NCBI GenBank assembly: GCA_947259215.1
Contig: CAMYLJ010000008.1
Location: 46,673 to 110,672, forward strand
Length of the DNA stretch: 64,000 bases
Source: an uncultured delta proteobacterium
GTDB lineage: Bacteria > Myxococcota_A > UBA9160 > JAFDET01
Direction of reading: 5' to 3'
The notes beneath the pieces are model-generated. The model was not told the DNA's origin and searched no databases. It worked only from the letters and a program-made list of their open reading frames with translations. Every line of letters starts with the position of its first letter. Within the stretch, counting starts at the first letter, position 1. Shown piece after piece: positions 10,972-55,682 of this stretch. Made by a program: the position numbers and the translations under genes.

Positions 10972-10977
10972 GCCGAA

Positions 10978-30061: not shown

Positions 30062-30158
30062 GCTGTGAAACAATGGCACCGGGGCCCGTTCCCGCGGCCG
30101 ACCCTGGGCCCCCCGACCCACCCCCGATCGCGCTAGCCGGCCCGACAGGAGATCCCCC

Positions 30159-31319: not shown

Positions 31320-31332
31320 GCGCGAGGTACGG

Positions 31333-31363
31333 CTGGCGCCCCGGGGATGACTCGCACCCCCGA
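31333..31363 (-). repeat. Degenerate copy of tRNA-Arg 3' end (att relic 3)
   Basis: 29/31 identity to 49589-49619. Confidence 0.85.
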
Positions 31364-33040
31364 AGGGTCTGGGCGCTTGCTATCCTGGTCCCCTACCTTG
31401 TCGAAAGGCACGGTTACGGACCGCCCCAAGACGATCGAGGACGCCACCCGGCGCATTGCAGAGCTCTCGCAGCAGCTGAGGGCCGTAACCGCCGAGCGAG
31501 ACGAGTACCGCCTGGCGTTCGATCGTGCGCCTCTGCTGATCTGGTACAAGGACGACAAGAACACGGTGCTGCGGGCCAATGAGCCCGCCGCCGCCTCTGC
31601 GGGGCTGACCCCGGACCAGGTGGTGGGGCGGTCGACCTTCGATCTCTACCCCGAGGAAGCCGACGGCTACTACCGGGACGACCTCGAGGTCATTCGATCC
31701 GGCCGGCCCAAGCTGGGCATCATCGAGCGGCTCGAAACACCCGAGGGCAAGCGCTGGGTCCAGACCGACAAGATCCCCTGGCGCAGCCCTTCCGGAGAGG
31801 CCGCTGGCGTGCTGGTGTTCGTCCGCGACATCACCGATCGCATCCAGATGCAGGAAGAGCTCTACCGCGCACAGCGTCTCGAGTCGTTGGGCCTCCTCGC
31901 TGGAGGCATCGCCCACGACTTCAACAACCTGCTTCAATCGATCTACGGCAACGTCGAGCTCCTGCGCCTCCGGCTCGAAGTTCCCGAGCAGGGTGAAGGC
32001 TCCGCCACGGAGGATCCGGCCGCGCGCTACGTCCGGCGGGCGATGTCGTCGATCGCCCGAGCGCGGTCGCTCACGCAGCAGCTGCTGACCTTCGCCAAGG
32101 GCGGCCAACCCGGACGGAGCCCGGTTCCACTGGAGCCCCTGATCGAAGAGGTCGTCACGCTGGCCCTCAGCGGCTCCTCGATCCAACCCGATGTGATCGT
32201 GCAGCCCGACCTCGACCCCTGCCTTGGCGACCGGAGTCAGATCGCGCAGCTCGTCGAAAACCTGCTCGTGAACGCCGTCCAGGCCATCGAGCAGGCCGAG
32301 TCGCGCTCCCAGCCGGGCGCGCGGAGGGCACCGGGGGTCTGTCGCGTCCGCGTCCGGCGCCGCAGCGATCCCCTCCCGACCTACACTGGCTCCTGGATCG
32401 AGGTCGAAATCGCGGACAATGGCGAGGGAATCGAGCCCGGGCATCTCGAGCGGATCTTCGACCCCTTCTTCACCACGAAGGCCGAGGGCTCGGGCCTCGG
32501 GCTGGCTTCCGCCTACCGATCGCCAAGCGTCATGGCGGCACGCTCGACTGCTGGAACAACAGCGGCGGCGGCGCCACGTTCCGCCTGCTGCTCCCCATTG
32601 CGGAGAAGGCCGCCGGAGATCTCCCCGCCGGGGAGGACGAGGTCGTGCCGAGCCTCCCGCCCCTGCGCGTCCTGCTGTTCGACGACGACGAGGCCATCCG
32701 GCAGCTCGCGCAGTCTGCCGGGCCACACCTGGGGCTGGAGCTGCGATGCGTCGGTGACCTCTCCCAGGCGCTTCGATCCTGCCAGCGTGCGATCGAGAGC
32801 GGCCGAGCGTACGACGTGGCCGTCATCGACCTCACGGTGCGTGGTGGGGTCGGTGGCACCGACGCACTGATCGAGCTGAGGGCGCTACAGCCGGGCCTGC
32901 CAGCGGTCGTGTGCAGTGGCTACTCCAACGATCCGGTCCTGGCCCGCCACGAAGAGCACGGCTTCGATGCCGCCCTGGTCAAGCCGTACCTCCTGGACGA
33001 GCTGCGTACGGCCCTGGCCGAGGCCACGTCGCGCAGCTGA
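31347..33040 (+). pseudogene. PAS hybrid histidine kinase-receiver, frameshift near 32517
   Basis: PAS, AHDFNNLL H-box, DPFFTTK, GLGL; then IAKRHGG...FRLLLP and a REC domain (DDD, D, KPY) in the shifted frame. Confidence 0.85.
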
Positions 33041-33249
33041 AGACCCGAGCCCGGAGGCCAGGAGCAGTGCGAGAGAGGCTTCCGCGAGCGTCTCGACCGG
33101 GATCGGGTCGTCGGGATCGACTCGCCGCCGGGGAGTGTACGCATCAGGGCCGTGTACTCTTCGCCGGGCATGGAGTATCCCCCGTTGGTATCGAGCGCGG
33201 AGCATAGGCGTGCCGGCGCGGGTCCCCGCGCCCTGTGGGGAGACGCACG

Positions 33250-34326
33250 ATGAGCGAGCTTCGGGATCGCATCGCGGCCGCGTGGGAAGGGCGCGTCTCC
33301 GGTTGCCAGCTCGGCAAGGCGGTGGAGATCCTCTCGGCCACGCAGGGCGCCGAGGCGCTTCACGCCTACCTGGAGCAGGCCGACGCCCTCCCCGTGCGCG
33401 ATTATATCCCGGCCCTCGAAGGCACGATCCCCGAGCGGTTCGTGCGCGGCTCCTGTCGTGGCCACATCACCCGCAGCGAGCCCGACGACGACATCAACTA
33501 CACCGTGCTGGCGCTCCTTCTCCTCGAGCGCCACGGCCTCGGGCTGACTACCGAGCACGTCGCGAGGGCCTGGCTCCAGCTGCTTCCCGCTGCCGCGGTC
33601 TTCACCGCGGAGCGCGCCGCCTACGTCACGCTCCTCAACCGGGCGCCGGAGTTCTTCGGCTCGGACATCGTCGACATCCCGGCCGGCTTCGATCTCGCGG
33701 AGTGCGCGGACAACCCCTGCAACGACTGGATCGGCGCGCAGATCCGCGCCGATCTCTATGGCTGGGTCTGCCCCGGGCGCCCGGCCCTCGCCGCCGATCT
33801 CGCTTCCCGCGACGCGGCGCTCTCCCACCGCGGCGACGGGATCCACGGGGCGGCGTTCGTGGCCGCCATGGGGGCGGCGATCCCCGACGCGCCTTCCCTC
33901 GAGGCCGCGCTCGACGTCGCGCTGGCAGAGATCCCGGCGGATTCGGGCGCGGTGCAGGCCGTGGCCCTCGGGCGCAAGCACGCCGGAAGCGCGGAGGGCG
34001 CAGCGGCAATTCGCGCACACTACGAAGGGATGTCGCCCGTCCACACGCTCAACAACCTGGCGCTGGTGGTGTGGGCGCTCCTCGGCGCCGACGACTACGC
34101 GAGCGCGGTGGGCGAGGTGGTCGCGGCGGGTCTCGACACCGACTGCAATGGCGCCACGGTCGGCGGGCTGTGGGGGATTCGGGGCGAGGCCATCCCCTCG
34201 GCGTGGACCGACCCCTGGCAGGGTTGCGTCGCTACGTCGCTCGCCGGCCACGGCGAGATCGGCCTCGATGAGCTCGTCGACCGCACCGTCGCGGTCGCGG
34301 AGCGCGTCGCGCGCGACGTGGCGTAG
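33250..34326 (+). CDS. ADP-ribosylglycohydrolase family protein
   Basis: EPDDDINY, WIGAQIRAD, DTDCNGAT. Confidence 0.88.
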   Translation: MSELRDRIAAAWEGRVSGCQLGKAVEILSATQGAEALHAYLEQADALPVRDYIPALEGTIPERFVRGSCRGHITRSEPDDDINYTVLALLLLERHGLGLTTEHVARAWLQLLPAAAVFTAERAAYVTLLNRAPEFFGSDIVDIPAGFDLAECADNPCNDWIGAQIRADLYGWVCPGRPALAADLASRDAALSHRGDGIHGAAFVAAMGAAIPDAPSLEAALDVALAEIPADSGAVQAVALGRKHAGSAEGAAAIRAHYEGMSPVHTLNNLALVVWALLGADDYASAVGEVVAAGLDTDCNGATVGGLWGIRGEAIPSAWTDPWQGCVATSLAGHGEIGLDELVDRTVAVAERVARDVA

Positions 34327-34370
34327 CGGCGAGGTCTCCAGCCAAGCGGAATCCTGGCCATGGCGGGGAG

Positions 34371-34478
34371 CCTGGCGCCCCGGGGAGGACTCGCAGAAGA
34401 TGACAGTGCGCCGGGCTTCGCCCAGCGCCCGATCCGCTTGACGCTCTCGCTGTGGGCCCCCAACCCGCTGCTTAGAAG
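34371..34478 (-). repeat. tRNA-Arg 3'-half copy interrupted in the T-loop (att relic 2)
   Basis: 34371-34393 identical to 49588-49610; about 61-bp insert; then CCCCC..GCTGCTTAGAAG resumes. Confidence 0.85.
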
Positions 34479-34536
34479 AACTTTGTCCTGGTGACCTGGA
34501 CCACGCGAGCGCCCTGGTGCGGAAGTCAGCCCGCGC

Positions 34537-34590
34537 GGAGTCCCGCGGGATCAGCTCTACAGGAAGATGAAGAGGTTGGGGATCGAGTGA
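34537..34590 (+). pseudogene. Fis-type HTH C-terminal shard of a sigma54 activator
   Basis: GVPRDQLYRKMKRLGIE-stop. Confidence 0.55.
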
Positions 34591-34667
34591 GGTCGGTCGG
34601 GTTGCAGGTATCCCCGATGTGGACAGAGGATTCATCTCGAAGGCAGGATGACCGAAGGAGACGGCGG

Positions 34668-35447
34668 TCAGGCAGCCGGGCTCCAGCCCTCCGGCCGCAG
34701 CCGATGCCCCATGCGGAAATAGCGCGTGTAGGTAGGCGGCGGCCCGAGCCCGAGCCTCTCGCGGGCCTCGTCCAGGGGCAGCGCGAGGAGGCCCTCCCAG
34801 TCCTGGACCGGCAGCCAGCTCGCCTCGCGTCCGCGACGCCTGGCGTCGTCGATGAGCGCGACGGCCCCCGGAGCCTGCATCGCACAAAGAGGACGGATCG
34901 CGGCAAGCGAAAGCCGGTAGGCGGGCGTTCCCAGCTGCTCGTAGCCAAACGCCAAGAGAGCGAACTCGCCGACCATGTCACGCGAGTAGCCGGTGGCGAC
35001 ATGCCAGAGGTCGTGGAGGTCGGTGATGCGGTCATGCACGAGCTGCCGTTCCTCGTCCATGAGCCCGAAGATCTCGCGGGCGGGGTCCGACGTCGCGGAG
35101 TCCAGCCCTTCGAGGCTGATCCCTTCTGCGTCCATGAAGGCTGCGTAGACCTGGCCGAGGCTTCCCAAGGGCAATGCGCGCAGGCGCGCGCGATCCATGA
35201 GTGTCTCGCGGATCGATCGCCGCTCGGCCAGGATGCGCGCACCGCTGGGGTCGGTACGAAAGCGCTGGAAGAGGCGCTCGGTCGTCTTGCCTTGAAGTGC
35301 GTAGACGAAGCGGGCACCGGCCTCCGTGTCTTCCGAGTCGCGAATCTGGCTCGCCAAGGCACGAAGTGCGAGCCAGGGGCGAACGCGTCCGCTCCGGGGT
35401 CGAGCTGCGGAGGCCGAAGGCGAGACGGAGCGAGATGTCGAGGACAT
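34668..35447 (-). CDS. Coq4 family protein
   Basis: LPLGSLG, HDLWHVATGY...GE. Confidence 0.87.
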   Translation of the reverse strand: MSSTSRSVSPSASAARPRSGRVRPWLALRALASQIRDSEDTEAGARFVYALQGKTTERLFQRFRTDPSGARILAERRSIRETLMDRARLRALPLGSLGQVYAAFMDAEGISLEGLDSATSDPAREIFGLMDEERQLVHDRITDLHDLWHVATGYSRDMVGEFALLAFGYEQLGTPAYRLSLAAIRPLCAMQAPGAVALIDDARRRGREASWLPVQDWEGLLALPLDEARERLGLGPPPTYTRYFRMGHRLRPEGWSPAA

Positions 35448-35721
35448 GGGTCTACCCTTCTCACGCATTCCCAAGGTACCACGACTCGTCTGCTATCAGC
35501 GGTTCGTGCGCCCGGCCCGGCCGCGGCTTCTCCGCGGAATCGCTCTGCAGTCGGGGCCTCTGGTTGTAGCCGGCCTCACGGGTGATCCGTGTAGATGAAG
35601 CGGATCGGGATGAACGGGAAGATCGCCCACGGCCATGGGCACGCTCTTCGAGGCCTGAGGAACGGGCAGACCCCCCGTGTTTACCTGCGGCTTACCCGGC
35701 CGAATCCCGAATCGCGTAAGT

Positions 35722-35769
35722 CCTGGCGCCCCGGGGAGGACTCGAACCCCCGACATGCTGCTTAGAAGG
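35722..35769 (-). repeat. Perfect 48-bp copy of tRNA-Arg 3' half (att site)
   Basis: Identical to 49588-49635, spanning the CCA end to the anticodon loop. Confidence 0.95.
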
Positions 35770-35857
35770 GCCCGGGGACGATGAGGAGTAGCGCGAGCTT
35801 GCGTCTCCTGCGCGGAGAGGCCCTGCAGGGGACGGTACGGGGCTGCACCGACGACGG

Positions 35858-35876
35858 CCCGACGGCCCTATACGGC
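35858..35876 (+). repeat. 19-bp direct repeat, copy 1 (putative arm-type site)
   Basis: CCCGACGGCCCTATACGGC identical to 49500-49518. Confidence 0.8.
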
Positions 35877-35882
35877 CCCCCG

Positions 35883-36497
35883 CTAGCGACCGTGGGTCTC
35901 GGCCGTGAGGTAGCGAGTCAAAAGCATCGCGATCTCCTCTGCAAGACGGTCGCCGAAGAGATCTGCGCTCACGTTCGAGCCGATCCCTTCGGCAGCACTC
36001 ACCGCGATGAACGCTGCAAGATCGAGATCGGTGACTCGCAGCTCCTGGTGGTGAGCTTCGAGAAGCTGACGCATGAAGGCGATGACGGATCGTCGCGCAT
36101 CGGCCAGGCGCCGTCGAAAGACCGCCCCGGGCACCTGCTCGAGCGAGCGAATGAAGTCGGGGCCTCGGCGCATGGCTCCCATCGCCAGCTTGAGAACCCG
36201 GCTGAGCGTGTCCTGGATCGGCGCCTCCAGATCGAGGTCCTCGCTCCGGATCGCCGCGACGAGTGCGTCGAACTCCTGCTGAATGAGCGCGTCGTAGACC
36301 TCTTCCTTGTTCGCGAAGTACTCGTACAGAGTGCCTACGCTCGCGCCGGCGGCCTCCGCGATCCTGTTGGTCGTGGCCTTGGCGTAGCCATGGCGCTCGA
36401 GAACCCGAGCCGCCGCCTCCAGCAGGGCCTGGACGGTCTCCCGGGAGCGCTCCTGTTTCGCCTTTCGTCTCGGGCGCTTGGCGGTCTTCGTGGGCAC
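35883..36497 (-). CDS. TetR regulator
   Basis: QERSRETV, TTNRIAEAAGASVGTLYEYFANK. Confidence 0.92.
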   Translation of the reverse strand: MPTKTAKRPRRKAKQERSRETVQALLEAAARVLERHGYAKATTNRIAEAAGASVGTLYEYFANKEEVYDALIQQEFDALVAAIRSEDLDLEAPIQDTLSRVLKLAMGAMRRGPDFIRSLEQVPGAVFRRRLADARRSVIAFMRQLLEAHHQELRVTDLDLAAFIAVSAAEGIGSNVSADLFGDRLAEEIAMLLTRYLTAETHGR

Positions 36498-36588
36498 CGG
36501 GGATCGGCCTCCGCAAACCCGAGTTGAACGAATCCGAGCAATGCCTCAATTTTATTGTCAGCGCGCCGAAACGGCAAGTGGGAGTGTC

Positions 36589-37311
36589 ATGGAAGCGATC
36601 GACTATCGGTACACCGCACGCCCCACCCGGAATCCCTTCCGGTATCTGCTCGCCGTGTGGCGCCTCATCCGCAACGACCCGGAGACGACGACCAACGAGG
36701 CGGCCATCGTGGAGATGGGCTTTGCCCGCTCGCGGCGGGGGCGGCGCTTTGCGCGCTGGGAGGAGGCCGTCGAGCACTTGAAGTCGGACCCCCGGACCGC
36801 CCGGGCGATGGACGCGCGGAAGGCGTTCGGCCCCATCTCGCTGGAAGACCTCGACGGATTGCCGGAGGGGACGCTGGGGCGCGTCTTCGCCGACCACTGC
36901 CGCGCGCGAAAGATCGACCCGAACCTGATCCACGTGCCGCCGGACGACGAGGTCGGCTGGATGCTCAACCACCTCTACCAGACCCACGACATCTGGCACG
37001 TGCTCACCGGCTGGGGCAACGACCTGACCGGCGAGGTGGGCCTCGCCGGCTTCTACTCGGCCCAGTTCGGCTCTCCACCCTTCTTCGGCTACATGCTCTC
37101 GCTGATCCTGCTGAACACGATCATGCGCCGCGCCAGCGTCGGGGAGATCTTCGAGGCCTTCAGCGCAGGGTTCCAGACCGGCCTGCGCACCCAGCCGCTC
37201 TTCGGCACGGACTGGGACGCGCTCTGGGACGTTCCCATCGAGGACGTGCGCGCGCGCTTCGAGATCGACCGCAGCACCGTCATCGGCGAGGGAATCCGGG
37301 CCGCAGCCTAG
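36589..37311 (+). CDS. Coq4 family protein
   Basis: LPEGTLG, HDIWHVLTGW...GE. Confidence 0.87.
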   Translation: MEAIDYRYTARPTRNPFRYLLAVWRLIRNDPETTTNEAAIVEMGFARSRRGRRFARWEEAVEHLKSDPRTARAMDARKAFGPISLEDLDGLPEGTLGRVFADHCRARKIDPNLIHVPPDDEVGWMLNHLYQTHDIWHVLTGWGNDLTGEVGLAGFYSAQFGSPPFFGYMLSLILLNTIMRRASVGEIFEAFSAGFQTGLRTQPLFGTDWDALWDVPIEDVRARFEIDRSTVIGEGIRAAA

Positions 37312-37314
37312 GCG

Positions 37315-37842
37315 GTGAGCCTCTTCCTCACATTCAGCGGCGTCTCACTGATCCTCGCCGGGATCGGATACCTGCTCTTCCCCCATGTTGGCGTCGGCCT
37401 CGCGGGAGTCGAGCTTCCCGTGGCCTCGGCGGCCATCGACGTGCGCGCCACCTATGGAGGCACGCAAGTCGGCGCGGGTCTCTTCCTGCTCTGGTGCCGG
37501 AGGAAGAACGGAACTGCGCGCGTAGGACTCGTGCTGATCCTGGTCTGGAGCGTGTGCCTAATGCTGTCCCGCATCTACGGATTCGCGGTAGACGGCGGGC
37601 CGGGCTGGTTCAACGCCCTGGGCATCGCGGTGGAAGGTGCCTTCGTCGTCGTCGCCGCCCTCCTGCTGCAACGCTCAGCCGTTCGCCCCGTCCGAGGCAA
37701 TTCCTCCGGCCAGCGAGCGGACGAGCGACGCCAGGAAGCGGTCCACCTCCGCACGCGGACGCCCGGAGAGCTTCATCTGCGCGATCATGTAGCCCGCGCC
37801 GATCATGATGCGCGCGCCGTCCCGCGCCGGGGCGGCGTTTGA
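37315..37842 (+). CDS. DUF4345-like membrane protein, 3' end overlaps the convergent TetR
   Basis: DVRATYGG motif, about 4 TMs; last ~55 codons are antisense to TetR. Confidence 0.7.
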   Translation: MSLFLTFSGVSLILAGIGYLLFPHVGVGLAGVELPVASAAIDVRATYGGTQVGAGLFLLWCRRKNGTARVGLVLILVWSVCLMLSRIYGFAVDGGPGWFNALGIAVEGAFVVVAALLLQRSAVRPVRGNSSGQRADERRQEAVHLRTRTPGELHLRDHVARADHDARAVPRRGGV

Positions 37843-38322: not shown

Positions 38323-38359
38323 TTATTGACAATAACTTCAATAACGCTCAATCTATTGA
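38323..38359. promoter_or_regulatory. AT-rich divergent promoter with palindromic operators
   Basis: TTATTG-A-CAATAA (38323-38335) and TCAAT-CT-ATTGA (38348-38359). Confidence 0.65.
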
Positions 38360-38388
38360 AGAACATATCAAATGGCGGGAGACGCCCC

Positions 38389-39669: not shown

Positions 39670-39679
39670 GGAGTCGAAG

Positions 39680-42342: not shown

Positions 42343-42355
42343 CGTGAGATCCCGC

Positions 42356-43171
42356 TCAGGCTACTCGGGCGCCGCCGTCGATGAGCAGGCCCACCCCGTT
42401 CACGTGCGCGGCGGCATCGGACGCCAGGTAACAGACGGTCGCGGCGACGTCGGCGGGCTCGCCGAACCCCCCGAGGAACTGCGTTTCGAGCAGTTGCTCC
42501 ACGGCCTGGGCGTCTTCGCCGTAGCCCAGCCGCACCATTCCTTCGAGTCCGCGATCCACCATCGGCGTCCGGATGAAGCCGGGGTGGACGCTGTTCACGC
42601 GGATTCCCAGGCCGAGGCGCGCGAACTCCACGGCCCCGGCGCGGGTGATCGACTCCACGGCGCCCTTGCTCGCGCAGTAGCTCGCCAGACCGGCGAAGCC
42701 GATCTTGCTACCCAGAGAGGAGACGTTGACGATCGATCCGCCCTGGCCCGCGGGACCGTCCGGCCCCATGACGCGAGCCGCGTGCTTCATGCCCAGGAAG
42801 ACGCCTTCCACGTTCACCCGCTGGATGCGCTGGAAGTTCTCGAGGGATTCCTCGTGGATCCAGTTCAGCTCTTCGATCCCGGCGTTGTTCACCAGCACGT
42901 CGAGACCGCCCAGGCCCTCGACCGCGCGCTGGACGGTCGCCTGCCACTGGTCCTCATCGGTGACGTCCTGGGCCGCGAACTCGGCGGTGAAGCCGCCTTG
43001 CGCGATGGTCTCGGCGGTCTTCCGGCCCTGCTCTTCGAGCACGTCGGTCAGGAGCACCCGGGCGCCCGCCTGGGCCAGGGCCTCCGCACACGCCGCCCCG
43101 AGGCCCTGGGCCGCCCCCGTGACCAGGGCCACCTTGCCGTCCAGCCGCTGGCGCTTCGCGTAGTCGGTCAT
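42356..43171 (-). CDS. SDR oxidoreductase (hydroxysteroid dehydrogenase-like)
   Basis: TGAAQGLG, NNAG, YCASK. Confidence 0.92.
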   Translation of the reverse strand: MTDYAKRQRLDGKVALVTGAAQGLGAACAEALAQAGARVLLTDVLEEQGRKTAETIAQGGFTAEFAAQDVTDEDQWQATVQRAVEGLGGLDVLVNNAGIEELNWIHEESLENFQRIQRVNVEGVFLGMKHAARVMGPDGPAGQGGSIVNVSSLGSKIGFAGLASYCASKGAVESITRAGAVEFARLGLGIRVNSVHPGFIRTPMVDRGLEGMVRLGYGEDAQAVEQLLETQFLGGFGEPADVAATVCYLASDAAAHVNGVGLLIDGGARVA

Positions 43172-43180
43172 GGTCGTCTC

Positions 43181-44413
43181 CTATCGCCCGAGCAGCGTCA
43201 CGCAGGCGGCGGCTTCCTCGATGCCGAGCAGACCGCCGCCGTTCTCCGCCACCGCGATCCGTGCGCCGGACACCTGCCGCGGACCGGCCTCCTCGCGAAG
43301 CTGCGTGACGAGCTCGTGGACCTGTCCGAGCCCCGTGGCGCCGATGGGATGGCCCTTGCACTCGAGCCCGCCGGAGGGGTTCACCGGGATCCGGCCGCCG
43401 AGGCAGGTGTCGCCGCGAACCGCCAGCTCGCCGCCTTCCCCGAAACCGCAGAAGCCCAGGTTCTCCACCTGGATGATCTCTCCCATCGCACTTGCGTCGT
43501 GCACTTCGGCTACGGAGACGTCCTCGGGGCCGACGCCGGCCGCCTCGTAGGCCTCTCGGGCGGCCAGATGACTGACGTGCTGGTCGAGCGCTTCGGGGTC
43601 GCGGTCCCGGCCGCTGCGCAGGACCGACGCGAGCACGCGAATCTCACGGCCCCGGGGCAGGCGGCTCAGAGCGACCGCCGTACACAGGACCGCCGCGGCC
43701 GCGCCGTCGCTGAGGGGAGCACACATGGGGACGGTGAGCGGACCGACCACGGGGCGCCCCGCCAACACCTCCTCTACGCTGAAGGGCTTCCGATACTGGG
43801 CTCTGGGGTTGTGGACCGAGTGGTTGTGGTTCTTGGCGGCGACCGCTGCGATCTGCTCCCGGGTCGTCCCGAACCGCCGCATGTGGAAGTGCGCGAACGC
43901 TGCGTAGACGTCCATGAAGCGGCTGTAGCCCCCGGACGCCGGCGGGTCGTCGGCAACCTCGTCGCCCGAGAGGCGCCTCAGATCAGCCAGGTTCCCCTCG
44001 ACGTCGTGGACGTCCCAGCCGCCCTCGAAGAGCCCGAACGCCTTCGCCCGATCCTCGCTGACCAGCTTCTCGGCGCCGACGGCGAGGGCCACGTCTCCCT
44101 GGCCTGCCCGCAGCCACGTGCCCGCCAGATGAAGGGCGCTGCTGCCGCTGGCACAGGCGTTCTCGACGTTCACGATCGGGATGCCCCCGAGCTCGAGGGA
44201 GCGCAACGCCACCTGGCCGCGGATCGTGATCTGCCCCTCGTGGTAGCCCTGGCCCGAGTTGGCGAAGAAGGCCGCGCCCAGGTCCGCAGCGGCGAGGCCG
44301 GCGTCCGCCAACGCCTCCTGGACCGCGGCTCGAGTCAGGTCCTTGACGCTCTGTGCGGGAAACCGCCCGAAGGGCGTCATCCCGACGCCGATCACGTAGA
44401 TGCGCTCCGCCAC
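43181..44413 (-). CDS. Thiolase (SCP2-type)
   Basis: ENACASG, EVHDA, GHPIGATG. Confidence 0.9.
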   Translation of the reverse strand: MAERIYVIGVGMTPFGRFPAQSVKDLTRAAVQEALADAGLAAADLGAAFFANSGQGYHEGQITIRGQVALRSLELGGIPIVNVENACASGSSALHLAGTWLRAGQGDVALAVGAEKLVSEDRAKAFGLFEGGWDVHDVEGNLADLRRLSGDEVADDPPASGGYSRFMDVYAAFAHFHMRRFGTTREQIAAVAAKNHNHSVHNPRAQYRKPFSVEEVLAGRPVVGPLTVPMCAPLSDGAAAAVLCTAVALSRLPRGREIRVLASVLRSGRDRDPEALDQHVSHLAAREAYEAAGVGPEDVSVAEVHDASAMGEIIQVENLGFCGFGEGGELAVRGDTCLGGRIPVNPSGGLECKGHPIGATGLGQVHELVTQLREEAGPRQVSGARIAVAENGGGLLGIEEAAACVTLLGR

Positions 44414-44424
44414 CCGTTCCTCCG

Positions 44425-45054
44425 TCAGCCGCGCCGTCGGCGCGCCGGCGGCTGCTTCGCCTCGGCGGCGGGATGGAGCAACCCGTGCAGGAGGAGCTCC
44501 GTCCATTCCCGGAACGCTTCGCCGACCGAGAGGCTCGCCTCCCGGAGAAACGCGGGCTCCTTCAGTCGGCGTGCGACGACCCGCGCGGCCTCGCTGACGA
44601 GGTACGGGTTCACGCGCCGCAGCTGGCCGCGCCGGATGCCGTCTTCGATGATCCGGCGGATGCCCGCGGCCCGGGTCTCCTGGTGCTCCTCCATCATGCG
44701 CCGCGCAGACGGGAAGGAATCGATGTCGCCGAAGAAGGTCGTGCTGGCCTGGACCGTTTCGACGAAGCCGGGGCGCAGGAAGGCCTCGAGTCGGACGGCG
44801 GGATCCTGGAGCTCGCCTGCCGCCTCGTCGCCCAGGCGGCGGATTCGGGCGAGCAGGCGCTCCAGCACGCGGAGGAAGAGGTCCTCCTTGCTCCCGGCGA
44901 GCTCGTAGAAGGATCTCCGGGAGCAGCGCAGGCGAGCGGCCAGCTCACCGACAGTCACCTTCCGGAAGCCCTCCTTCTGGAAGATCTCCTCGAGTGCGTC
45001 CAGGAGCTCCCGCTGTCGCGCCCCTTCGACGTTTTCCGGGTTCCGACCGGCCAT
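44425..45054 (-). CDS. TetR regulator
   Basis: VTVGELAARLRCSRRSFYELAGSKEDL. Confidence 0.88.
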   Translation of the reverse strand: MAGRNPENVEGARQRELLDALEEIFQKEGFRKVTVGELAARLRCSRRSFYELAGSKEDLFLRVLERLLARIRRLGDEAAGELQDPAVRLEAFLRPGFVETVQASTTFFGDIDSFPSARRMMEEHQETRAAGIRRIIEDGIRRGQLRRVNPYLVSEAARVVARRLKEPAFLREASLSVGEAFREWTELLLHGLLHPAAEAKQPPARRRRG

Positions 45055-45061
45055 GAGGGTA

Positions 45062-45089
45062 TGGTACTCTAAGCACTAGTCTGGTACCA
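45062..45089. promoter_or_regulatory. Inverted repeat, putative TetR operator
   Basis: TGGTAC-N16-GTACCA between divergent tetR and DUF1329. Confidence 0.5.
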
Positions 45090-45113
45090 ACCGTTTCTCG
45101 AGCAGGTGGCCCG

Positions 45114-46436
45114 ATGCGCATGCCCGGTCTCCACGCCCTGCCCGCGGTGGCAGCTCTGTTCTTCCTGGCCCCGTCGACGTCCACCCACGCCGAGGTAGAC
45201 GCCAGGCCCGACGGGCCCGCCGCGCTCCGCGAGGGCGAGATCATCGACTTCGCCCGGGTCGAGCGTCTGAAGCCGTATCTGCCACCGGAGCTCTGGGCCC
45301 ACCGCCAGTTCGTCTTCTACGAGGGGATGCGCCTCGAGATCGGTCCGGCGTTTCGCGACTACGCGCCGCCGCCGGTCTTCCACGAGGCCACGGAGACGCA
45401 CCGCGGCCAGGCGCGGATCGGTCCGGACGGCAGCTTGGAGAACTACACCGCCGGCGAGCCCTTCCCCATGGACGAGATCGACTGCCGTAACGATCCCCAG
45501 GCCGGGGAGAAGGTCATCTGGAACTTCGACTATCGCTGGCAGGGATCCGGCCAGACGGCACACGCCTACTACTCCTACTGGGACCGCGGGGAGGAGCTTC
45601 CGCTCTACTACGAGGGCACGGCGCGCTACGTCTGGCTCGCCCACCGTCCCGAGCCCCAGTATGCGAAGAACGGCGGCAACATCTTCCGCAAGGAGCGGCG
45701 CAAGCTCGCCTACGGCGTGAACGTCCTGGCCCCGTTCGACGCCAAGGGCATCGCGATCCTGAACTACCGCTACAAGGCCGCGGATGGACCGCGCGACCAG
45801 GCCAAGAACGACGACACCTGGGTCTACATCCCGACCCTGCGCCGGGTGCGCAGGGTCTCCAGCGCCCAGCGCACGGACGCCGTCTCGGGTACGGACTTCA
45901 CCTTCGACGACTTCTCGGGCTTCTTCGGCATCCCGCCGCAGTACGAGTGGCAGTGCCTCGGCGAGCACGACGTGATCGCCACGGTGAACTCGCGGATCAA
46001 GGCCTATCCCTACACGAAGGACCACAACTTCGGCCCCTACGGGCTCTCCTTCGCCGACGACCGCTGGGAGCTGCGCCATGCCATCAAGATCCGCTTCGTC
46101 CCCAAAAACGACGACCACCCGTACTCGCAGAAGATCCTCTACATCGACAAGAACACCGCCGAGATGCTCTATTCCTTCGCCTACGACCAGAAGGAGGAGC
46201 TCTGGAAGATCATCTACCACAACAAGCGCTGGAGCGAAGACGGCCACGAGTTCTACGAGCCGTGGGAAGGCGTGCCGGAGCCCCGTGACAACATGTCGGT
46301 GGCGGACGTCGTGATCAACGTCCAGACCGGGACGGGCAACCGCATCGAGTTCTGGGACGCCAACGGCACGCCCCTCGGCAGCAGCGGCAAGGTGCGGCGC
46401 TTCATCGACATCGGCCGCCTCACCCGGGGGCGCTGA
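45114..46436 (+). CDS. DUF1329 / outer-membrane lipoprotein-sorting-like periplasmic protein
   Basis: Signal peptide; WVYIPTLRRVRR, YDQKEELWK. Confidence 0.85.
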   Translation: MRMPGLHALPAVAALFFLAPSTSTHAEVDARPDGPAALREGEIIDFARVERLKPYLPPELWAHRQFVFYEGMRLEIGPAFRDYAPPPVFHEATETHRGQARIGPDGSLENYTAGEPFPMDEIDCRNDPQAGEKVIWNFDYRWQGSGQTAHAYYSYWDRGEELPLYYEGTARYVWLAHRPEPQYAKNGGNIFRKERRKLAYGVNVLAPFDAKGIAILNYRYKAADGPRDQAKNDDTWVYIPTLRRVRRVSSAQRTDAVSGTDFTFDDFSGFFGIPPQYEWQCLGEHDVIATVNSRIKAYPYTKDHNFGPYGLSFADDRWELRHAIKIRFVPKNDDHPYSQKILYIDKNTAEMLYSFAYDQKEELWKIIYHNKRWSEDGHEFYEPWEGVPEPRDNMSVADVVINVQTGTGNRIEFWDANGTPLGSSGKVRRFIDIGRLTRGR

Positions 46437-46438
46437 GC

Positions 46439-49396
46439 GTGGATCGCCGGCGCGCCCTCTGGATCGCGACGGCCTTCCTGGTGATCCTCGGTTCCGGTGC
46501 CGCGTCCGCCCAGCCCACGCTGGTCTCGCCGGACGTCGGCCGCTTCCGCCTGGACGGCTACGCCGAGATGCAGCTCCGAGGCCTGATGGATCGCTTCGAT
46601 ACGGATCGGGCCTATCTCAGTCAGTGGGCCTGGGTTCTCAACCTCGAGCCCGAGTGGGACATCGCGCCGGACGGCTGGGGGCCCTTCACGCACCTCTCGG
46701 CCTTCGCCCGTCTGGAGTTCCGGTACGAGTGCGTGTGGACCGGGTGTGGGATCGGAAACTCGTGGCGCCACTTCGGCGACCGCGCCAAGAACGCCCCGGC
46801 AGAGAACTGGACGAACGCCCTCACCGAAGGGTGGGTCGGCGGGATCAATCTGCCCAAACAGGGCATACCGCGACGCCGGGTGCACGGCGACAGTACGAAG
46901 CTCCTCGACATCACCCACGTACCCCGCTTCGAGCGCTTCTACGACGTCGGCGTCCCGCGGTCCTCCCTGGAGGAGGCCCTCGGTCCGCTCGCCGACGACC
47001 TCTTCGCCTACCGGCGGTTTCCCGGGCCGCGAGAGTCCCTGGCCTTTCCCCAGGGTCCCTGGCGGCCGGAGTCCAAGATCCAGCCCAACGGGGCGCTTGC
47101 CCGTGAGCCTTCTACGGTCCTTCCGCTCCCGCTGCGGCCCGAGGCGAGGAGCTTGTTCATCCCTTCGGCGGCGCTGCGCCAGGAGATCGACGGCTTCGGG
47201 AACTTCGATCAGAATTTTAGCCAGACCGAGCTCGAGTGGAACCTCGGCGCCAGCCAGGAGGACCAGGAGTGGTTCCTGCGCGAGCTCTACTTCGACATGG
47301 AGCTCCTCGACGGAAAGCTCTGGGTCCGCGCCGGCAAGCAGAACATCGTCTGGGGCAAGACGGAGCTCTTCCGGACCACGGATCAGTTCAACCCGGTGGA
47401 CATCGGACTGGCCTCCCTGCCAAGCCTCGAGGAGAGTCGCATCCCGCTCTGGTCGATCCGCGGAGTCTGGGCCTTCTACGACGTCGGCCCCCTCGAGGAC
47501 GTGCGGCTCGAGCTGGCCGCGAACCTCGACGACTTCGAGCCCATCGACACCGGTCGCTGTGCGGAGCCCTACACCGTGTGGCTGATCTGCTTCAAGTCCG
47601 CAGGGCTCTGGTCCCACGGCGTCACCGGCGGGACCCTCGCGGGCGAGGTGCGCCCGCCCGACTTCTGGGAAGACCTCCGCGGGCTGGAGGTGGGCGCCCG
47701 CCTCGAGTTCCGCTGGTCGCGCTTCAGCGTCGCGATCATGGACTTCTACGGCTACCACGACCTGCCCGCCATCGAGCTCTTCAACAACTTCGAGCGCAAG
47801 GTGGACGTGCAGACCGGCAGGCCGCTGAACGTCTACGGGCGCCCGTTGACGCCGGACAACGCGCTGGAGACCAGCACGGGCAACCGCCAGGCCTTCGACT
47901 TCGGCTGCGCCGCGTCCCGCGGCTTCGGGGAGAAGGCGCTGCTCGCCCTGACCGGCGGCGCGGGTCAGATCCCCGACGTGAGCGAGCGCTGCATCGGGGA
48001 CATCGTCAACGTTCGAGATCCCCTGACCCTGACCGCCACTCTGTTGGGGTTGAACGTGAGCATCCAGGCGGAGCCCACCAACGCCATCGGCGCCATCCTC
48101 GCTGGCCAATTCGGAGGCAATCTGCTGCTGGAGGGCGCGATCAACGGCCTCGACTCCGCCCTGCTGGCCATCGTCACCGGCAGCCTCCCGGTGCGGCTGG
48201 CGCCCCTGAACCGGGACCCCTTCGACGGCCCGTCCGGCGGCGGTCTCTTCGGCACCGACTGCCCTGTCGGGACGACGATCGGGCTGATCCTCTGCCCGAT
48301 CGTATCCACCTCCAACGTCAGCTACTACCTGACGAACGAGCAGGAGGCGCTACTCGGCTGCGGTCCCTTCTACGGCACGGACTGCGATGTCCAAGGCATC
48401 GACATCTTCAACGCCGAAGCGAGCGTGCTTCTCCAAGCCTTCCCCGGCTTCGAGCGCAATCCCGTCGGCACCCGCTACGAGAAAGGGCGTCTCTTCATCC
48501 TGCCCGGCGCGCGCGGCCCCGGCGACCCCGGCTACGACCTGCGCTTCGACGGCACTCCGCCGAAGGGATTTCGCAGCGAGATGGAGGCGCTCTCCTTCAA
48601 CTTCGCCCTGGGCATCGCGGTCCTCGGGATCGCCGAGGGCGACACGGAATGCGACCTCAACGACCTCGCGACCTGCGCGGCGATCCGTGCAGTGGAGGCG
48701 CTGACCGGCTCCCAGCGGCCCGAACTGCGCGCGGCGGGCAACGGCCGCTACGGCCGCCGGGACTGGGGCTGGCACGGAGGAGGCGAAGCGCTGATCCGCT
48801 ACCCGAAGCGGAACGTCCTGGGCCTCTCCCTCGACTTCGCCGAGGATCGCACCAAGACGAGCTGGGGTGTGGAGTTCACCTGGATCAACGACACCAGCTT
48901 CGCCAGCAACACCTCGCCCACGCGCCTCCAGGAAGCTGACGTGTTGAACCTGACGATCTCCGTGGACCGTCCAACCTTCGTCAACTTCCTGAACGCCAAC
49001 CGGACCTTCCTCCTGAACAGCCAGGTGTTCCTCCGTTACATCCCGGGCCACGATGCGAGCTTCGACATCAGCGGCCCCGTGTCGGTGTTGGCCACGTTCG
49101 CGGTCATCACCGGCTACTTCCAGGACCGCCTGCTCTCGAGCCTGGTCTACGTGCACGACTTCTCGACAACTTCCGGCGGTCTGGTGGCCCAGTTCACCTA
49201 CCGGGCGACCGAGGCGTTCTCGGTGAGTCTGGGCGTGCTCGGCTTCTTCGGAAGGCCCGGGACCAACCGGATCGCTCGCTACCCCGCTCAGCTCTTCGAC
49301 ACCCAGACCTCGTTCGACATCGACACGCGTTACGAGGGTCTCACGGCGATCTCAGAGCGCGACGAGGTCTTCATGGTGCTCCGCTACACCTTCTGA
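46439..49396 (+). CDS. DUF1302 outer-membrane beta-barrel protein
   Basis: Signal peptide; GKQNIVWG; C-terminal LRYTF. Confidence 0.8.
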   Translation: MDRRRALWIATAFLVILGSGAASAQPTLVSPDVGRFRLDGYAEMQLRGLMDRFDTDRAYLSQWAWVLNLEPEWDIAPDGWGPFTHLSAFARLEFRYECVWTGCGIGNSWRHFGDRAKNAPAENWTNALTEGWVGGINLPKQGIPRRRVHGDSTKLLDITHVPRFERFYDVGVPRSSLEEALGPLADDLFAYRRFPGPRESLAFPQGPWRPESKIQPNGALAREPSTVLPLPLRPEARSLFIPSAALRQEIDGFGNFDQNFSQTELEWNLGASQEDQEWFLRELYFDMELLDGKLWVRAGKQNIVWGKTELFRTTDQFNPVDIGLASLPSLEESRIPLWSIRGVWAFYDVGPLEDVRLELAANLDDFEPIDTGRCAEPYTVWLICFKSAGLWSHGVTGGTLAGEVRPPDFWEDLRGLEVGARLEFRWSRFSVAIMDFYGYHDLPAIELFNNFERKVDVQTGRPLNVYGRPLTPDNALETSTGNRQAFDFGCAASRGFGEKALLALTGGAGQIPDVSERCIGDIVNVRDPLTLTATLLGLNVSIQAEPTNAIGAILAGQFGGNLLLEGAINGLDSALLAIVTGSLPVRLAPLNRDPFDGPSGGGLFGTDCPVGTTIGLILCPIVSTSNVSYYLTNEQEALLGCGPFYGTDCDVQGIDIFNAEASVLLQAFPGFERNPVGTRYEKGRLFILPGARGPGDPGYDLRFDGTPPKGFRSEMEALSFNFALGIAVLGIAEGDTECDLNDLATCAAIRAVEALTGSQRPELRAAGNGRYGRRDWGWHGGGEALIRYPKRNVLGLSLDFAEDRTKTSWGVEFTWINDTSFASNTSPTRLQEADVLNLTISVDRPTFVNFLNANRTFLLNSQVFLRYIPGHDASFDISGPVSVLATFAVITGYFQDRLLSSLVYVHDFSTTSGGLVAQFTYRATEAFSVSLGVLGFFGRPGTNRIARYPAQLFDTQTSFDIDTRYEGLTAISERDEVFMVLRYTF

Positions 49397-49499
49397 GACT
49401 CGGCCGAGCAGATCCATGGAAAGCAAGGATAAAGCGACCGGAGGTCGGCCTTCCTGCCGACGGAGACGACGGGCTACGCGGATGCGTTGAGCGGCGACC

Positions 49500-49518
49500 C
49501 CCGACGGCCCTATACGGC
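49500..49518 (+). repeat. 19-bp direct repeat, copy 2
   Basis: Identical to 35858-35876. Confidence 0.8.
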
Positions 49519-49555
49519 TCCTCTCCAGAAGTCGCCGCGAACGCCGCGCCGCGCG

Positions 49556-49586
49556 AAAAAGAAAACCCGTGGTGGCCGGCGGGGTT
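49556..49586 (-). terminator. Rho-independent terminator candidate of the tRNA
   Basis: AACCCG/CGGGGTT arms followed by TTTTCTTTTT on the minus strand. Confidence 0.55.
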
Positions 49587-49589
49587 CCC

Positions 49590-49666
49590 TGGCGCCCCGG
49601 GGAGGACTCGAACCCCCGACATGCTGCTTAGAAGGCAGCCGCTCTATCCACCTGAGCTACCGGGGC
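49590..49666 (-). tRNA. tRNA-Arg(UCU)
   Basis: GCCCCGG/CCGGGGC acceptor, GCTC/GAGC D-arm, GCTGC-CTTCTAA-GCAGC anticodon arm, TTCGAGT T-loop, encoded CCA; 77 nt. Confidence 0.97.
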
Positions 49667-49810
49667 GCAGGGAGAAAGCTACCGCGTGGCGGGGGGTTGC
49701 GCGAACGGCTCGATGCGCCCGTCGGGTCTGTCGGGCAGGGTTGCCGCCACCGGGAGATGATGAAGGTACTCTTGCGCCACGGCTCAGCCTCGCTGCGCGA
49801 GAGAACGGCA

Positions 49811-50869: not shown

Positions 50870-50885
50870 TGGCGCCCGCTTCTGC

Positions 50886-53582: not shown

Positions 53583-55678
<2,096 letters not shown>

Positions 55679-55682
<4 letters not shown>

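What the first reader, a model, noticed from the sequence alone, without database searches (positions are those of the whole stretch)
31333..49666. Tandem array of tRNA-Arg 3'-end repeats bounding three integrase-less cargo segments
Seen: the tRNA plus direct copies at 35722 (48/48), 34371 (interrupted) and 31333 (29/31), decaying with distance from the tRNA. Segments are ~13.8 kb (lipid catabolism and uptake), ~1.2 kb (Coq4) and ~3.0 kb (hybrid kinase, ADP-ribosylglycohydrolase). Established: repeats ending at the anticodon loop are typical of tyrosine-integrase sites. Unusual: no integrase, phage or conjugation gene in any segment. Inference: a polar, chronologically ordered gene-capture array, either serially domesticated islands or minimal cassettes mobilised in trans.
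Basis: partly seen in the sequence, partly recalled or inferred. Interest (0 to 1): 0.85.

Follow-up and report, generated by a model that had tools for sequence, protein, structure and literature searches.

The report
Decayed island array at tRNA-Arg
Three stretches of foreign DNA were inserted one after another behind an arginine tRNA gene of an uncultured Myxococcota bacterium and then lost their integrase genes, which is a known way for genomic islands to build up and decay.

Summary
tRNA-Arg(TCT) (49590-49666, minus strand) is followed by three same-strand copies of its 3' part. DR1 (35722-35769) matches 48/48. DR2 (34373-34479) is split by a 63-bp insert. DR3 (31334-31364) matches 28/31. 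No intact integrase lies in the window.

The absence of an integrase comes from deletion. Window 49451-49589 is homologous to the last codons of a tyrosine integrase that sits intact beside tRNA-Arg(TCT) in a relative, G129. There it belongs to a 13-kb low-GC island with the same [33-77] repeat. Segment A also keeps a 19-nt motif, exact, in both arms. Relatives G020 and G129 carry the same motif in both arms, and G089 carries it in the tRNA-side arm and has the integrase as a pseudogene.

G000 has no close homologue of this integrase (best 36-39% identity), so I found no candidate for movement in trans.

The best reading is serial site-specific integration at one attB, newest next to the tRNA, followed by integrase loss. 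This is tandem accretion that leaves CIME-like remnants, a known kind.

One wider point stands out. The genome holds 124 tRNA fragments. They bound 47 segments, and 39 of those have no integrase hit. Thirty relatives show far fewer fragments.

The parts
49590..49666 (-). tRNA-Arg(TCT), the intact target gene. Its positions 32-77 form the att identity block (49588-49635 with 2 flanking bases).
   Evidence: ARAGORN; BLAST
49433..49589 (+). P' arm of segment A, which is also the remnant of the 3' end of a tyrosine integrase gene (the part after the catalytic domain). It holds the 19-nt arm motif at 49500-49518 and a hairpin plus T-run just behind the tRNA (49557-49589).
   Evidence: BLASTP to the G129 integrase gives 48/72 identical, E 4e-26; 20 of 26 residues are identical in 49451-49528, outside the tRNA. 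tblastn. Motif. The hairpin was read from the sequence.
35770..49432 (.). Segment A cargo: TetR 35883-36497(-), Coq4 36478-37311(+), TetR 37675-38322(-), acyl-CoA dehydrogenase 38326-39669(+), DUF5938/saccharopine-dehydrogenase-like 39680-40792(+), acyl-CoA synthetase 40789-42342(-), SDR 42356-43171(-), thiolase-like 43181-44506(-), TetR 44425-45054(-), DUF1329 45114-46436(+), DUF1302 46439-49396(+).
   Evidence: Pfam. GC 0.67 against 0.70-0.72 in the flanks; tetranucleotide distance 0.23-0.27, against background percentiles of 0.245 (90th) and 0.275 (95th).
35770..35880 (.). P arm of segment A, with the 19-nt motif CCCGACGGCCCTATACGGC at 35858-35876, in direct orientation to the copy at 49500-49518.
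   Evidence: Homologous to the P arms of G020 and G129: 68% and 64% over 177-185 nt including the core.
35722..35769 (-). DR1: displaced tRNA 3' fragment, 48/48 identical to 49588-49635.
34480..35721 (.). Segment B (1.24 kb): one Coq4-family gene at 34668-35474(-). Its tRNA-side end (35666-35723) resembles the integrase tail only weakly and contains a stop codon.
   Evidence: Pfam 1.5e-23; frame plot; tblastn E 0.01
34373..34479 (-). DR2: a tRNA 3' fragment split into 34373-34395 and 34459-34479 by a 63-bp unique insert.
   Evidence: A contig of run X1 spans it.
31365..34372 (.). Segment C (3.0 kb): a PAS-HisKA-HATPase-REC hybrid kinase (31347-33040, +), broken by one frameshift near 32505-32520, and an ADP-ribosylglycohydrolase at 33235-34326(+).
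   Evidence: Pfam; frame plot; three-frame translation
31334..31364 (-). DR3: the most decayed fragment (tRNA positions 48-77, 28/31). The kinase ORF's first ATG (31347) lies inside it.
30159..31319 (+). Amidohydrolase gene, the first gene outside the array. It is 86% identical in DNA to genes in G001 and G002.

Best explanation
The locus is a tandem array of three genomic-island remnants. They were laid down by repeated site-specific integration of tyrosine-integrase elements into the 3' part of tRNA-Arg(TCT), with the crossover region at the anticodon loop.

Each incoming element recombined with the intact tRNA, rebuilt it, and pushed the older element and the displaced 3' fragment further downstream. 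The order from the tRNA outward is therefore youngest (A, 13.8 kb) to oldest (C, 3.0 kb).

In the intact form of this element family, the integrase gene lies directly behind the tRNA on the opposite strand and reads across the att core. In all three segments here the integrase has been deleted. Segment A keeps only the non-catalytic tail of the gene, which is also the P' arm, together with an intact P arm. Segments B and C keep less.

What remains is cargo that the host has kept: a fatty-acyl/lipid catabolism and uptake cluster, a Coq4-like gene, a broken hybrid kinase and an ADP-ribosylglycohydrolase.

Shown here: the repeats, their boundaries, the arms, the integrase remnant, and the intact relative. 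Inferred: the order of events, deletion as the way the integrase was lost, and present immobility.
For: 1. Repeat geometry. There are three same-strand copies downstream of the tRNA, with identity falling 48/48, then split, then 28/31.

2. Shared boundary. The same boundary at position 32/33 occurs in G000:C42, G020, G050 and G129.

3. Intact relative. In G129 (locus L095), tRNA-Arg(TCT) is at 1186-1262. A 431-aa integrase ORF at 1171-2466 lies on the opposite strand (PF00589, 2.9e-21). GC is 0.56-0.65 inside the island against 0.70-0.74 outside. The arm motif is at 1313-1325 and 14088-14100, and the [33-77] repeat at 14197-14240.

4. Integrase remnant. Window 49433-49669 aligns to residues 363-427 of that integrase: 48/72 identical, E 4e-26, and 20/26 in the part outside the tRNA. 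The match begins just after the end of the Pfam catalytic domain (residues 189-362). This explains why PF00589 finds nothing in the window.

5. Arms. The 19-nt motif is exact at 35858-35876 and 49500-49518. These are the only two exact copies in the 5.7-Mb assembly. The P and P' arms are 61-72% identical to those of G020, G129 and G089.

6. A decay series exists among relatives:
- G129 has an intact integrase.
- G089 has pseudogene pieces covering residues 209-404 beside its tRNA.
- G000 has a remnant from residue 358 (tblastn; 363 by BLASTP).
- G020 has a remnant from residue 374.
- Several partial or stop-containing copies of the family are listed among the matches in 41 of 193 genomes of the order.

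7. Decay gradient within the array. A has both arms. B has a weak remnant with a stop. C has none and carries a frameshifted kinase.

8. No cognate integrase in G000. The best homologues are 36-39% identical and sit at other tRNAs.

9. The model is in print. [quoted passage not shown] A review of integrative mobilizable elements describes decay to CIMEs followed by accretion (PMC5704250, passages).
Against: - No closely related genome was available. G000 is the only member of its genus in the collection, and the best metagenome hit for a cargo gene was 54% identical. No empty site and no variant of the array was seen, so the insertion order is inferred from repeat decay alone.
- DR1 is perfectly identical and both arm motifs of segment A are exact. 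If the integrase was lost long ago, that is surprising. It fits a recent deletion, or selection on the att sites, which would favour the mobilisable reading.
- The deletion end points in four junctions cluster within 25 codons (residues 358, 374, 376, 382). That is not obviously random. Selection for the tRNA terminator may explain it, but I did not test this.
- Segment A's composition differs only modestly from the genome, at about the 90th-95th percentile.
- Parts of the cargo occur as ordinary chromosomal clusters, away from any tRNA, in G012 and G009.
Confidence: 0.7

Rival explanations
1. Segment A, and perhaps B, is a non-autonomous but still mobilisable element of the CIME type. It keeps functional attL and attR with arm sites, and it is excised, transferred and re-integrated by an integrase of the same family supplied in trans, or in cis by a newly arriving element.
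For: - DR1 is 48/48, and the 19-nt arm motif is exact in both arms of A.
- The same arms bound very different contents in other genomes: 1.5 kb with no Pfam hit in G020, and 13 kb of defence-like genes in G129.
- Across the genome, 39 of 47 att-bounded segments lack a PF00589 hit.
- Junctions of the tRNA-Pro arrays keep conserved flanks on both sides of the fragment.
- Contigs C53 and C37 share three pieces at 85-91% identity in a different order.
- CIMEs mobilised in cis are documented (PMC5704250, passages).
Against: - No integrase closer than 36-39% identity to the G129 type is in the 95.7%-complete assembly, and none lies beside any tRNA-Arg(TCT) copy.
- The cargo of A is not found elsewhere in the genome above 76% identity.
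- B and C have decayed arms, and C holds a broken gene.
- An integrase remnant shows descent from an autonomous element, not a dedicated cassette design.
Confidence: 0.2
2. The array is part of a dedicated, integron-like gene-capture platform. Small cassettes carry a tRNA-derived recombination site and are stockpiled at tRNA genes by a few integrases that serve many cassettes.
For: - The genome holds 124 tRNA fragments on 45 of 128 contigs. They define 47 bounded segments with a median of about 4.3 kb, of which 8 have an integrase hit.
- G000 gives 29 matches to tRNA-Pro(GGG), against 1-5 in each of 30 relatives.
- About 11 tRNA-Pro junctions share a conserved downstream flank of roughly 80 nt that is followed by cargo and not by an integrase.
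Against: - For the Arg(TCT) family, the conserved flank is the tail of an integrase gene, which indicates decayed autonomous elements.
- There is no platform-resident integrase, promoter or attI-like site at the tRNA-Arg locus.
- Cassette orientation and gene direction are mixed.
- The assembly is fragmented into 128 contigs. Its island contigs could come from several strains, which would inflate the counts.
Confidence: 0.05
3. The repeats do not come from mobile DNA. They are local duplications of the tRNA 3' end, chance matches, or assembly artefacts.
For: None specific. The assembly is fragmented, and bridging of DR1 could not be checked.
Against: - None was expected by chance in 100 shuffles.
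- The fragment boundary is identical in four other genomes or loci.
- The conserved arms and the integrase remnant argue against duplication or chance.
- A contig of run X1 spans DR2.
Confidence: 0.03

Closest known systems
Tandem accretion of genomic islands at tRNA genes, with decay to CIMEs (cis-mobilizable elements; ICESt1-related elements of Streptococcus thermophilus; reviewed in PMC5704250, passages read)
   Same: Site-specific integration into the 3' end of a tRNA gene. Older elements lose their integration genes but keep attL and attR, and new elements integrate beside them to form arrays separated by target-gene fragments.
   Different: The host is an uncultured Myxococcota bacterium. 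No conjugation or mobilisation genes were seen in any member, including among the 14 ORFs tested by Pfam in the intact G129 element. All three members are integrase-less, and no mobilisation has been shown.
Tycheposon islands of Prochlorococcus (10.1101/2020.12.28.424599, passages read)
   Same: Cargo-carrying elements at tRNA genes. Successive integrations push older elements into the island, and remnants with fragmented integrases and partial tRNAs remain. The cargo is metabolic or defence-related.
   Different: No tycheposon hallmark replication genes were found. The integrase family and the host phylum differ. Membership was not tested beyond Pfam.
Islander-type tRNA islands (PMC4383910, passages read)
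   Same: A tRNA gene with a displaced 3' fragment in the same orientation, and an anticodon-centred crossover class.
   Different: Islander requires an integrase gene in each island, so this array would be rejected. That database lists only 4 tandems of three or more, and at most 19 islands in one genome.
Myxophage Mx8 integration system (PMC6070905, passages read; Islander's note on Mx8 and SSV integrases extending across attP)
   Same: In the intact relative G129, the integrase ORF runs across the att core (antisense to the tRNA), so integration changes the gene's 3' end. The host phylum is the same.
   Different: No phage genes were seen. I did not measure sequence relatedness to Mx8 Int. 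That Mx8 targets a tRNA-Asp gene is recalled and comes from no call.
Integron cassette arrays
   Same: A polar array of promoter-poor cargo units separated by short recombination sites.
   Different: There is no IntI-type integrase, attI or attC. The sites are tRNA fragments with arms derived from integrase-bearing elements, and the units hold up to 11 genes in both directions.

Membership tests
tRNA-targeting genomic island (Islander criteria) | An intact tRNA gene plus a displaced fragment of its 3' end, in the same orientation, downstream | tested here: met
   three fragments on the minus strand downstream of the tRNA's 3' end
tRNA-targeting genomic island (Islander criteria) | A tyrosine integrase gene inside each island | tested here: not met
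   The six-frame PF00589 search at E<=1 gives no match in the window. Only a non-catalytic 3' remnant is present, at 49451-49589.
tRNA-targeting genomic island (Islander criteria) | The identity block starts at the anticodon loop or the T loop and runs to the 3' end | tested here: met
   DR1 covers positions 32-77. The copies in C42, G020, G050 and G129 cover 33-77.
CIME (cis-mobilizable element) | [quoted passage not shown] | tested here: met
   Met for segment A: the core is 48/48 and the arm motif is exact in both arms, with no integrase. Segments B and C have decayed arms.
CIME (cis-mobilizable element) | Can be excised or transferred when a related element supplies the integrase | not testable with these tools
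   The laid material was short assembled contigs, which cannot show rare junctions. No candidate integrase is in the assembly.
Arg(TCT)-targeting element family typified by the G129 island | P' and P arms carry the GGCCCTATACGGC motif about 50-110 nt from the core | tested here: met
   The combination of tRNA end plus motif occurs in 5 of 193 genomes of the order and 0 times in the reversed-pattern control.
Arg(TCT)-targeting element family typified by the G129 island | An integrase of the G129 type abuts the tRNA | tested here: not met
   Only the last roughly 45 codons remain
Integron | IntI integrase, attI site, and attC-bounded single-gene cassettes | tested here: not met
   No integrase in the window. 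The separators are tRNA fragments, and segment A holds 11 genes on both strands.
Tycheposon | Hallmark replication module (primase, helicase or polymerase) beside the recombinase | tested here: not met
   Pfam on all the segment genes I called and on 14 ORFs of the G129 element shows none. PHROGs was not searched.

The most novel reading that the evidence does not exclude
This Myxococcota genome runs a genome-wide, integron-like economy of att-bounded cassettes. Dozens of mostly integrase-less segments of 0.4-20 kb, each flanked by a tRNA 3' fragment and conserved arm sequences, are stockpiled at ten or more tRNA genes. A few integrases acting in trans shuffle them. The tRNA-Arg(TCT) array is one such stockpile, and its segment A can still move.
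Probability: 0.12. Interest if true: 0.7.

Novelty: new member of a known kind. Interest (0 to 1): 0.35.

Why it matters
The locus is a clean example, from a little-studied phylum, of how integrative elements turn into fixed host DNA. The same pair of att arms can be followed through four states:
- an intact defence island (G129);
- an integrase pseudogene (G089);
- a 13.8-kb lipid-catabolism segment that keeps only the integrase tail (this window);
- a 1.5-kb remnant (G020).

It also shows that island finders that require an integrase gene miss such arrays.

The wider count may matter more than this one array. The genome has 124 tRNA fragments, 39 of 47 bounded segments have no integrase hit, and the tRNA-Pro fragment count is about ten times that of relatives. 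This suggests that tRNA-targeted integration is a main route of gene gain in this lineage, and that a closed genome of it would be worth examining.

Tried and rejected
**Comparative loci.** G000 has no same-genus genome in the collection. Same-family genomes G001 and G002 share only the amidohydrolase gene next to DR3 (86% DNA identity) and nothing else of window 20000-60000. No empty site could be defined.

**Metagenome contigs.** I searched with the DUF5938 protein. Of 81 relatives found, 80 loci were kept, and the best was 54% identical, so there were no close variants. The loci served only to show that DUF5938 and the acyl-CoA synthetase form a conserved module.

**Sequencing runs.** Ten runs from 7 studies hold at most 0.12 of the sampled words, all from marine or sediment metagenomes. 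Contigs of X1-X4 laid on 30100-50000 were short and of low depth. No joint between two repeats (for example 35770 to 49589) appeared among the rows shown; 112 more joints were not shown. Contigs cannot show rare forms, so this says nothing about excision.

**Cognate integrase by adjacency.** None of the 31 PF00589 matches in G000 lies beside a tRNA-Arg(TCT) copy. None does in G001, G012, G016, G028 or G041 either.

**Further repeat copies.** I looked for decayed copies left of DR3 and found none.

**The 63-bp insert in DR2.** I checked whether it is a repeated element. It is not.

**Segments in G020 and G050.** Pfam on ORFs of their 1.5-kb and 3-kb segments gave no hits.

**A noisy script.** A tblastx comparison of the end of C42 with the window produced only noise from summed statistics. 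I ignored it.


Full report
**Observation.** The window is G000:C8:46673-110672, from a 5.7-Mb, 128-contig, 70% GC assembly. ARAGORN finds a single tRNA, tRNA-Arg(TCT), at 49590-49666 on the minus strand. A 31-mer of its 3' end, allowing up to 3 mismatches, matches three places on the same strand, and none was expected in 100 shuffles. BLAST of the tRNA against the whole genome gives these copies:
- DR1 at 35724-35769, tRNA positions 32-77, 46/46. It becomes 48/48 with two flanking bases.
- DR2a at 34373-34393.
- DR3 at 31334-31363, positions 48-77, 28/30.
- A fourth exact 45-nt copy (positions 33-77) on another contig, C42:30622-30666.

DR2 continues after 63 unrelated bases with CCCCCAACCCGCTGCTTAGAAG at 34459-34479. 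That insert is unique in the genome.

**Gene content.** I called genes from GC-by-codon-position profiles and Pfam.
- Segment C (31365-34372) holds a PAS-HisKA-HATPase kinase. Its reading frame shifts once near 32505-32520, and the receiver domain continues in another frame to 33040. It also holds an ADP-ribosylglycohydrolase.
- Segment B (34480-35721) holds one Coq4-family gene on the minus strand.
- Segment A (35770-49589) holds three TetR regulators, a second Coq4 gene, an acyl-CoA dehydrogenase, a DUF5938 protein, an acyl-CoA synthetase, a short-chain dehydrogenase, a thiolase-like protein, and the DUF1329/DUF1302 pair.

A six-frame search with the Phage_integrase model at E<=1 finds 31 matches in the genome and none in the window. 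GC is about 0.67 in segments A and B against 0.70-0.72 around them. The tetranucleotide distance of those segments reaches the 90th-95th percentile of 3-kb background windows, which is a modest signal.

**Where the integrase went.** Among 61 genomes drawn from the same order, several carry fragments of tRNA-Arg(TCT). In G020 and G050, the copy covering positions 33-77 lies 1.5 kb and 3 kb behind the tRNA, and the ORFs I tested in those short segments gave no Pfam hit.

Aligning the junctions showed that G000 DR1 and the G020 repeat share about 110 nt beyond the repeat. The sequences just behind the two tRNAs also share a block. At the centre of both blocks is the motif CCCGACGGCCCTATACGGC. It is exact at 35858-35876 and 49500-49518, in direct orientation, and these are the only two exact copies in the assembly.

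I then searched 193 genomes of the order for the tRNA end followed by the motif. It is present in 5 of them (G000, G020, G089, G091, G129) and 0 times in the reversed-pattern control.

G129 carries the intact form. tRNA-His and tRNA-Arg(TCT) are followed at once by a 431-aa ORF on the opposite strand with Phage_integrase (2.9e-21), Phage_int_M and a weak arm-binding domain. A 13-kb stretch of GC 0.56-0.65 follows, between flanks of 0.70-0.74. It encodes an AAA_15/AAA_21-DUF3696 protein and a TIR-domain protein. The motif appears again at 14088-14100, and the [33-77] repeat at 14197-14240.

The translation of window 49433-49669 aligns to residues 363-427 of this integrase: 48 of 72 identical, E 4e-26. 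Over the 26 residues that lie outside the tRNA, 20 are identical. The alignment starts directly after the end of the catalytic-domain match (residues 189-362). The window therefore keeps only the non-catalytic tail of the gene. A stop codon lies at 49430-49432, and the DUF1302 gene ends at 49396.

G089 has pseudogene pieces covering residues 209-404 beside its tRNA-Arg(TCT). G020 keeps residues from 374 onward. The flank of G000 DR1 shows only a weak match (E 0.01) that contains a stop. The P and P' arms of G000, G020, G129 and G089 are 61-76% identical over 177-207 nt.

In G129 the integrase ORF runs antisense through the whole tRNA, so the att core lies inside the gene. This arrangement is described for myxophage Mx8 (PMC6070905, passages; also noted in PMC4383910). 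In the excised form implied by DR1, the frame would end seven codons after the core. That is my own reading.

**Is there an integrase that could act in trans?** tblastn with the G129 integrase finds only 33-34% identical genes in G000, at tRNA-Gly(GCC) on C9 and at tRNA-Lys fragments on C3, plus the remnant itself. The genome-search tool reports 36-39% for the same two genes. In the order, 41 of 193 genomes have a match at E<=1e-40, and many of these are at contig ends, partial, or contain stops. Of 15 named loci of this family, 8 have an adjacent tRNA and 7 show none in the stretch fetched: tRNA-Arg(TCT) in 2, Val(TAC) in 3, Phe(GAA) in 2 and Gly(CCC) in 1. Their record titles name Myxococcota or Deltaproteobacteria metagenome-assembled genomes. 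No cognate integrase is visible in this 95.7%-complete assembly.

**Context in relatives.** In seven genomes of the order (G001, G016, G020, G028, G050, G089, G129), tRNA-Arg(TCT) and tRNA-His(GTG) are divergent neighbours 90-170 bp apart. In G000 they are 17.7 kb apart, and the window's share of that interval holds an alpha-glucan metabolism cluster. A block 10.6 kb behind the tRNA in G001 matches C8:37061-41474, which lies 54.8 kb behind the tRNA in G000. The whole region downstream of this tRNA is therefore variable between genera, and DR3 need not be the oldest boundary. No further copies were detectable, though.

**Cargo.** DUF5938 sits next to an acyl-CoA synthetase in 53 of the 80 metagenome loci kept, often together with the dehydrogenase or the thiolase-like gene. 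TetR-Coq4 followed by DUF1329-DUF1302 occurs at 60-80% protein identity in G012 and G009, with no tRNA or tRNA fragment in the 20-kb stretches fetched. The cargo is ordinary accessory metabolism. It is not found a second time in G000 above 76% identity.

**Genome-wide picture (beyond the finding).**
- I ran BLAST with all 61 predicted tRNAs against the assembly. It finds 124 fragments (at least 20 nt and 90% identity) outside tRNA genes, on 45 of 128 contigs. Of these, 95 reach the tRNA 3' end.
- Fragment start points cluster at positions 28-33 and 48-55. These are the two crossover classes tabulated by Islander.
- Adjacent same-tRNA, same-strand sites bound 47 segments of 0.4-20 kb. Only 8 of them contain a PF00589 match.
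- A tRNA-Pro(GGG) probe gives 29 matches in G000 against 1-5 in each of 30 relatives.
- G000 has 31 PF00589 matches, against 4-10 in five relatives.
- The 26 tRNA-Pro junctions have conserved flanks on both sides of the fragment. The downstream flanks fall into two recurring classes, with a few unlike either: one class is the same as behind the true gene, and the other is a conserved stretch of about 80 nt followed directly by cargo.
- Contigs C53 and C37 share three pieces at 85-91% identity in a different order.

These counts come from a fragmented assembly that may mix strains.

**Interpretation.** The best explanation is serial integration of elements of one family at tRNA-Arg(TCT), with the newest next to the tRNA, followed by deletion of each integrase. 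It rests on the repeat geometry, the boundary shared across genomes, the arms, the integrase remnant, and the decay series in relatives.

This is the accretion-and-decay route described for ICE, IME and CIME tandems (PMC5704250) and for Prochlorococcus islands (preprint). I therefore file the locus as a new member of a known kind.

Segment A meets the sequence definition of a CIME, since attL and attR are kept and the integration genes are lost. I cannot exclude that a visiting element of the same family could move it, and I give that reading 0.2. An integron-like dedicated platform is the boldest reading the genome-wide counts allow. For this array, the integrase remnant speaks against it.

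**Limits.**
- There was no close relative, no raw reads and no bridging check for DR1.
- The arm motif's role as a protein-binding site is inferred from its position and conservation.
- The motif copy in the P' arm also lies inside the integrase tail's coding sequence (it encodes RPYTA). Its conservation there could be coding constraint. The copy in the P arm lies outside any such frame.

Noticed in passing
whole genome G000 (for example C9:1-18751, C53, C37, C49, C73, C17:153274-210591): There are 124 tRNA 3'-type fragments outside tRNA genes on 45 of 128 contigs. They bound 47 segments (0.4-20 kb), and 39 of these have no PF00589 hit. tRNA-Pro(GGG) gives 29 matches in G000 against 1-5 in each of 30 relatives.
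   Followed up: partly
G000 contigs C53, C37, C49, C73, C76, C87: Junctions with a tRNA-Pro(GGG) fragment [28-77] have conserved flanks on both sides. The downstream flanks form two recurring classes, with a few unlike either. One class equals the flank of the true gene (followed by an integrase on C23 and C37). The other is a block of about 80 nt with an inverted repeat (CAGCCGGTT...AACCGGCTG), followed directly by cargo. C53 and C37 share three pieces at 85-91% identity in a different order.
   Followed up: partly
window 49667-64000 and on to C8:114020: tRNA-Arg(TCT) and tRNA-His(GTG) are 17.7 kb apart here but 90-170 bp apart in seven relatives. The window's share of the interval (49667-64000) encodes two glucan phosphorylase-like proteins, a CBM48/alpha-amylase debranching-type enzyme and a glycosyltransferase. 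How DNA came to lie between the 5' sides of two divergent tRNA genes is not explained.
   Followed up: partly
window 31334-31364 and 31347: The first ATG of the kinase ORF lies inside DR3 and exists only because of a G-to-T change relative to the tRNA sequence (GGGGAGGAC to GGGGATGAC). The true start was not determined.
   Followed up: no
window 32505-32520: A single frameshift splits the hybrid histidine kinase between the G2 box of the ATPase domain and the rest of the domain plus the receiver. It could be a real pseudogene or a consensus error in the assembly.
   Followed up: partly
G000:C42:27746-31793: An exact 45-nt copy of tRNA-Arg(TCT) positions 33-77 lies between a small XRE-type HTH gene and a PEP-CTERM protein gene. 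It is 2.85 kb from a tRNA-Asp fragment that directly follows leuD. An ECF sigma/anti-sigma pair lies in between, and there is no integrase. Its inner flank resembles that of DR2.
   Followed up: partly
L095 (G129:C4:316000-335999) 1171-14240: This is the intact 13-kb island at tRNA-Arg(TCT). It carries defence-like cargo (an AAA_15/AAA_21+DUF3696 ATPase and a TIR-domain protein), and its integrase ORF reads antisense through the whole tRNA gene.
   Followed up: partly
L086 (G020:C96) about 3180-3346 and 548-560: About 150 nt behind the G020 tRNA-Arg(TCT), the alignment shows a second P-arm-like block followed by the start of another repeat. This would be a junction with almost no interior. A third motif copy at 548-560 suggests a further decayed element.
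   Followed up: no
G000 C17:160700-160917, 165653-165869, 192807-193023; C44; C62; C97; C68; C36: A two-part module recurs at least eight times: a tRNA-Asp fragment, about 140-170 nt, then a tRNA-Arg(TCG)-like fragment. It is as if a pair of tRNA pieces were carried around together.
   Followed up: no
G000:C23:90452-97386: Two 3' fragments of tRNA-Thr(CGT) lie upstream of the intact gene, in the same orientation. This is the opposite of the usual geometry.
   Followed up: no
L093 (G089) 5442-5552: A 37-residue piece of the integrase pseudogene is 97% identical in protein to the G129 integrase, although the two genomes are in different families. This suggests recent horizontal spread of the element.
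   Followed up: no
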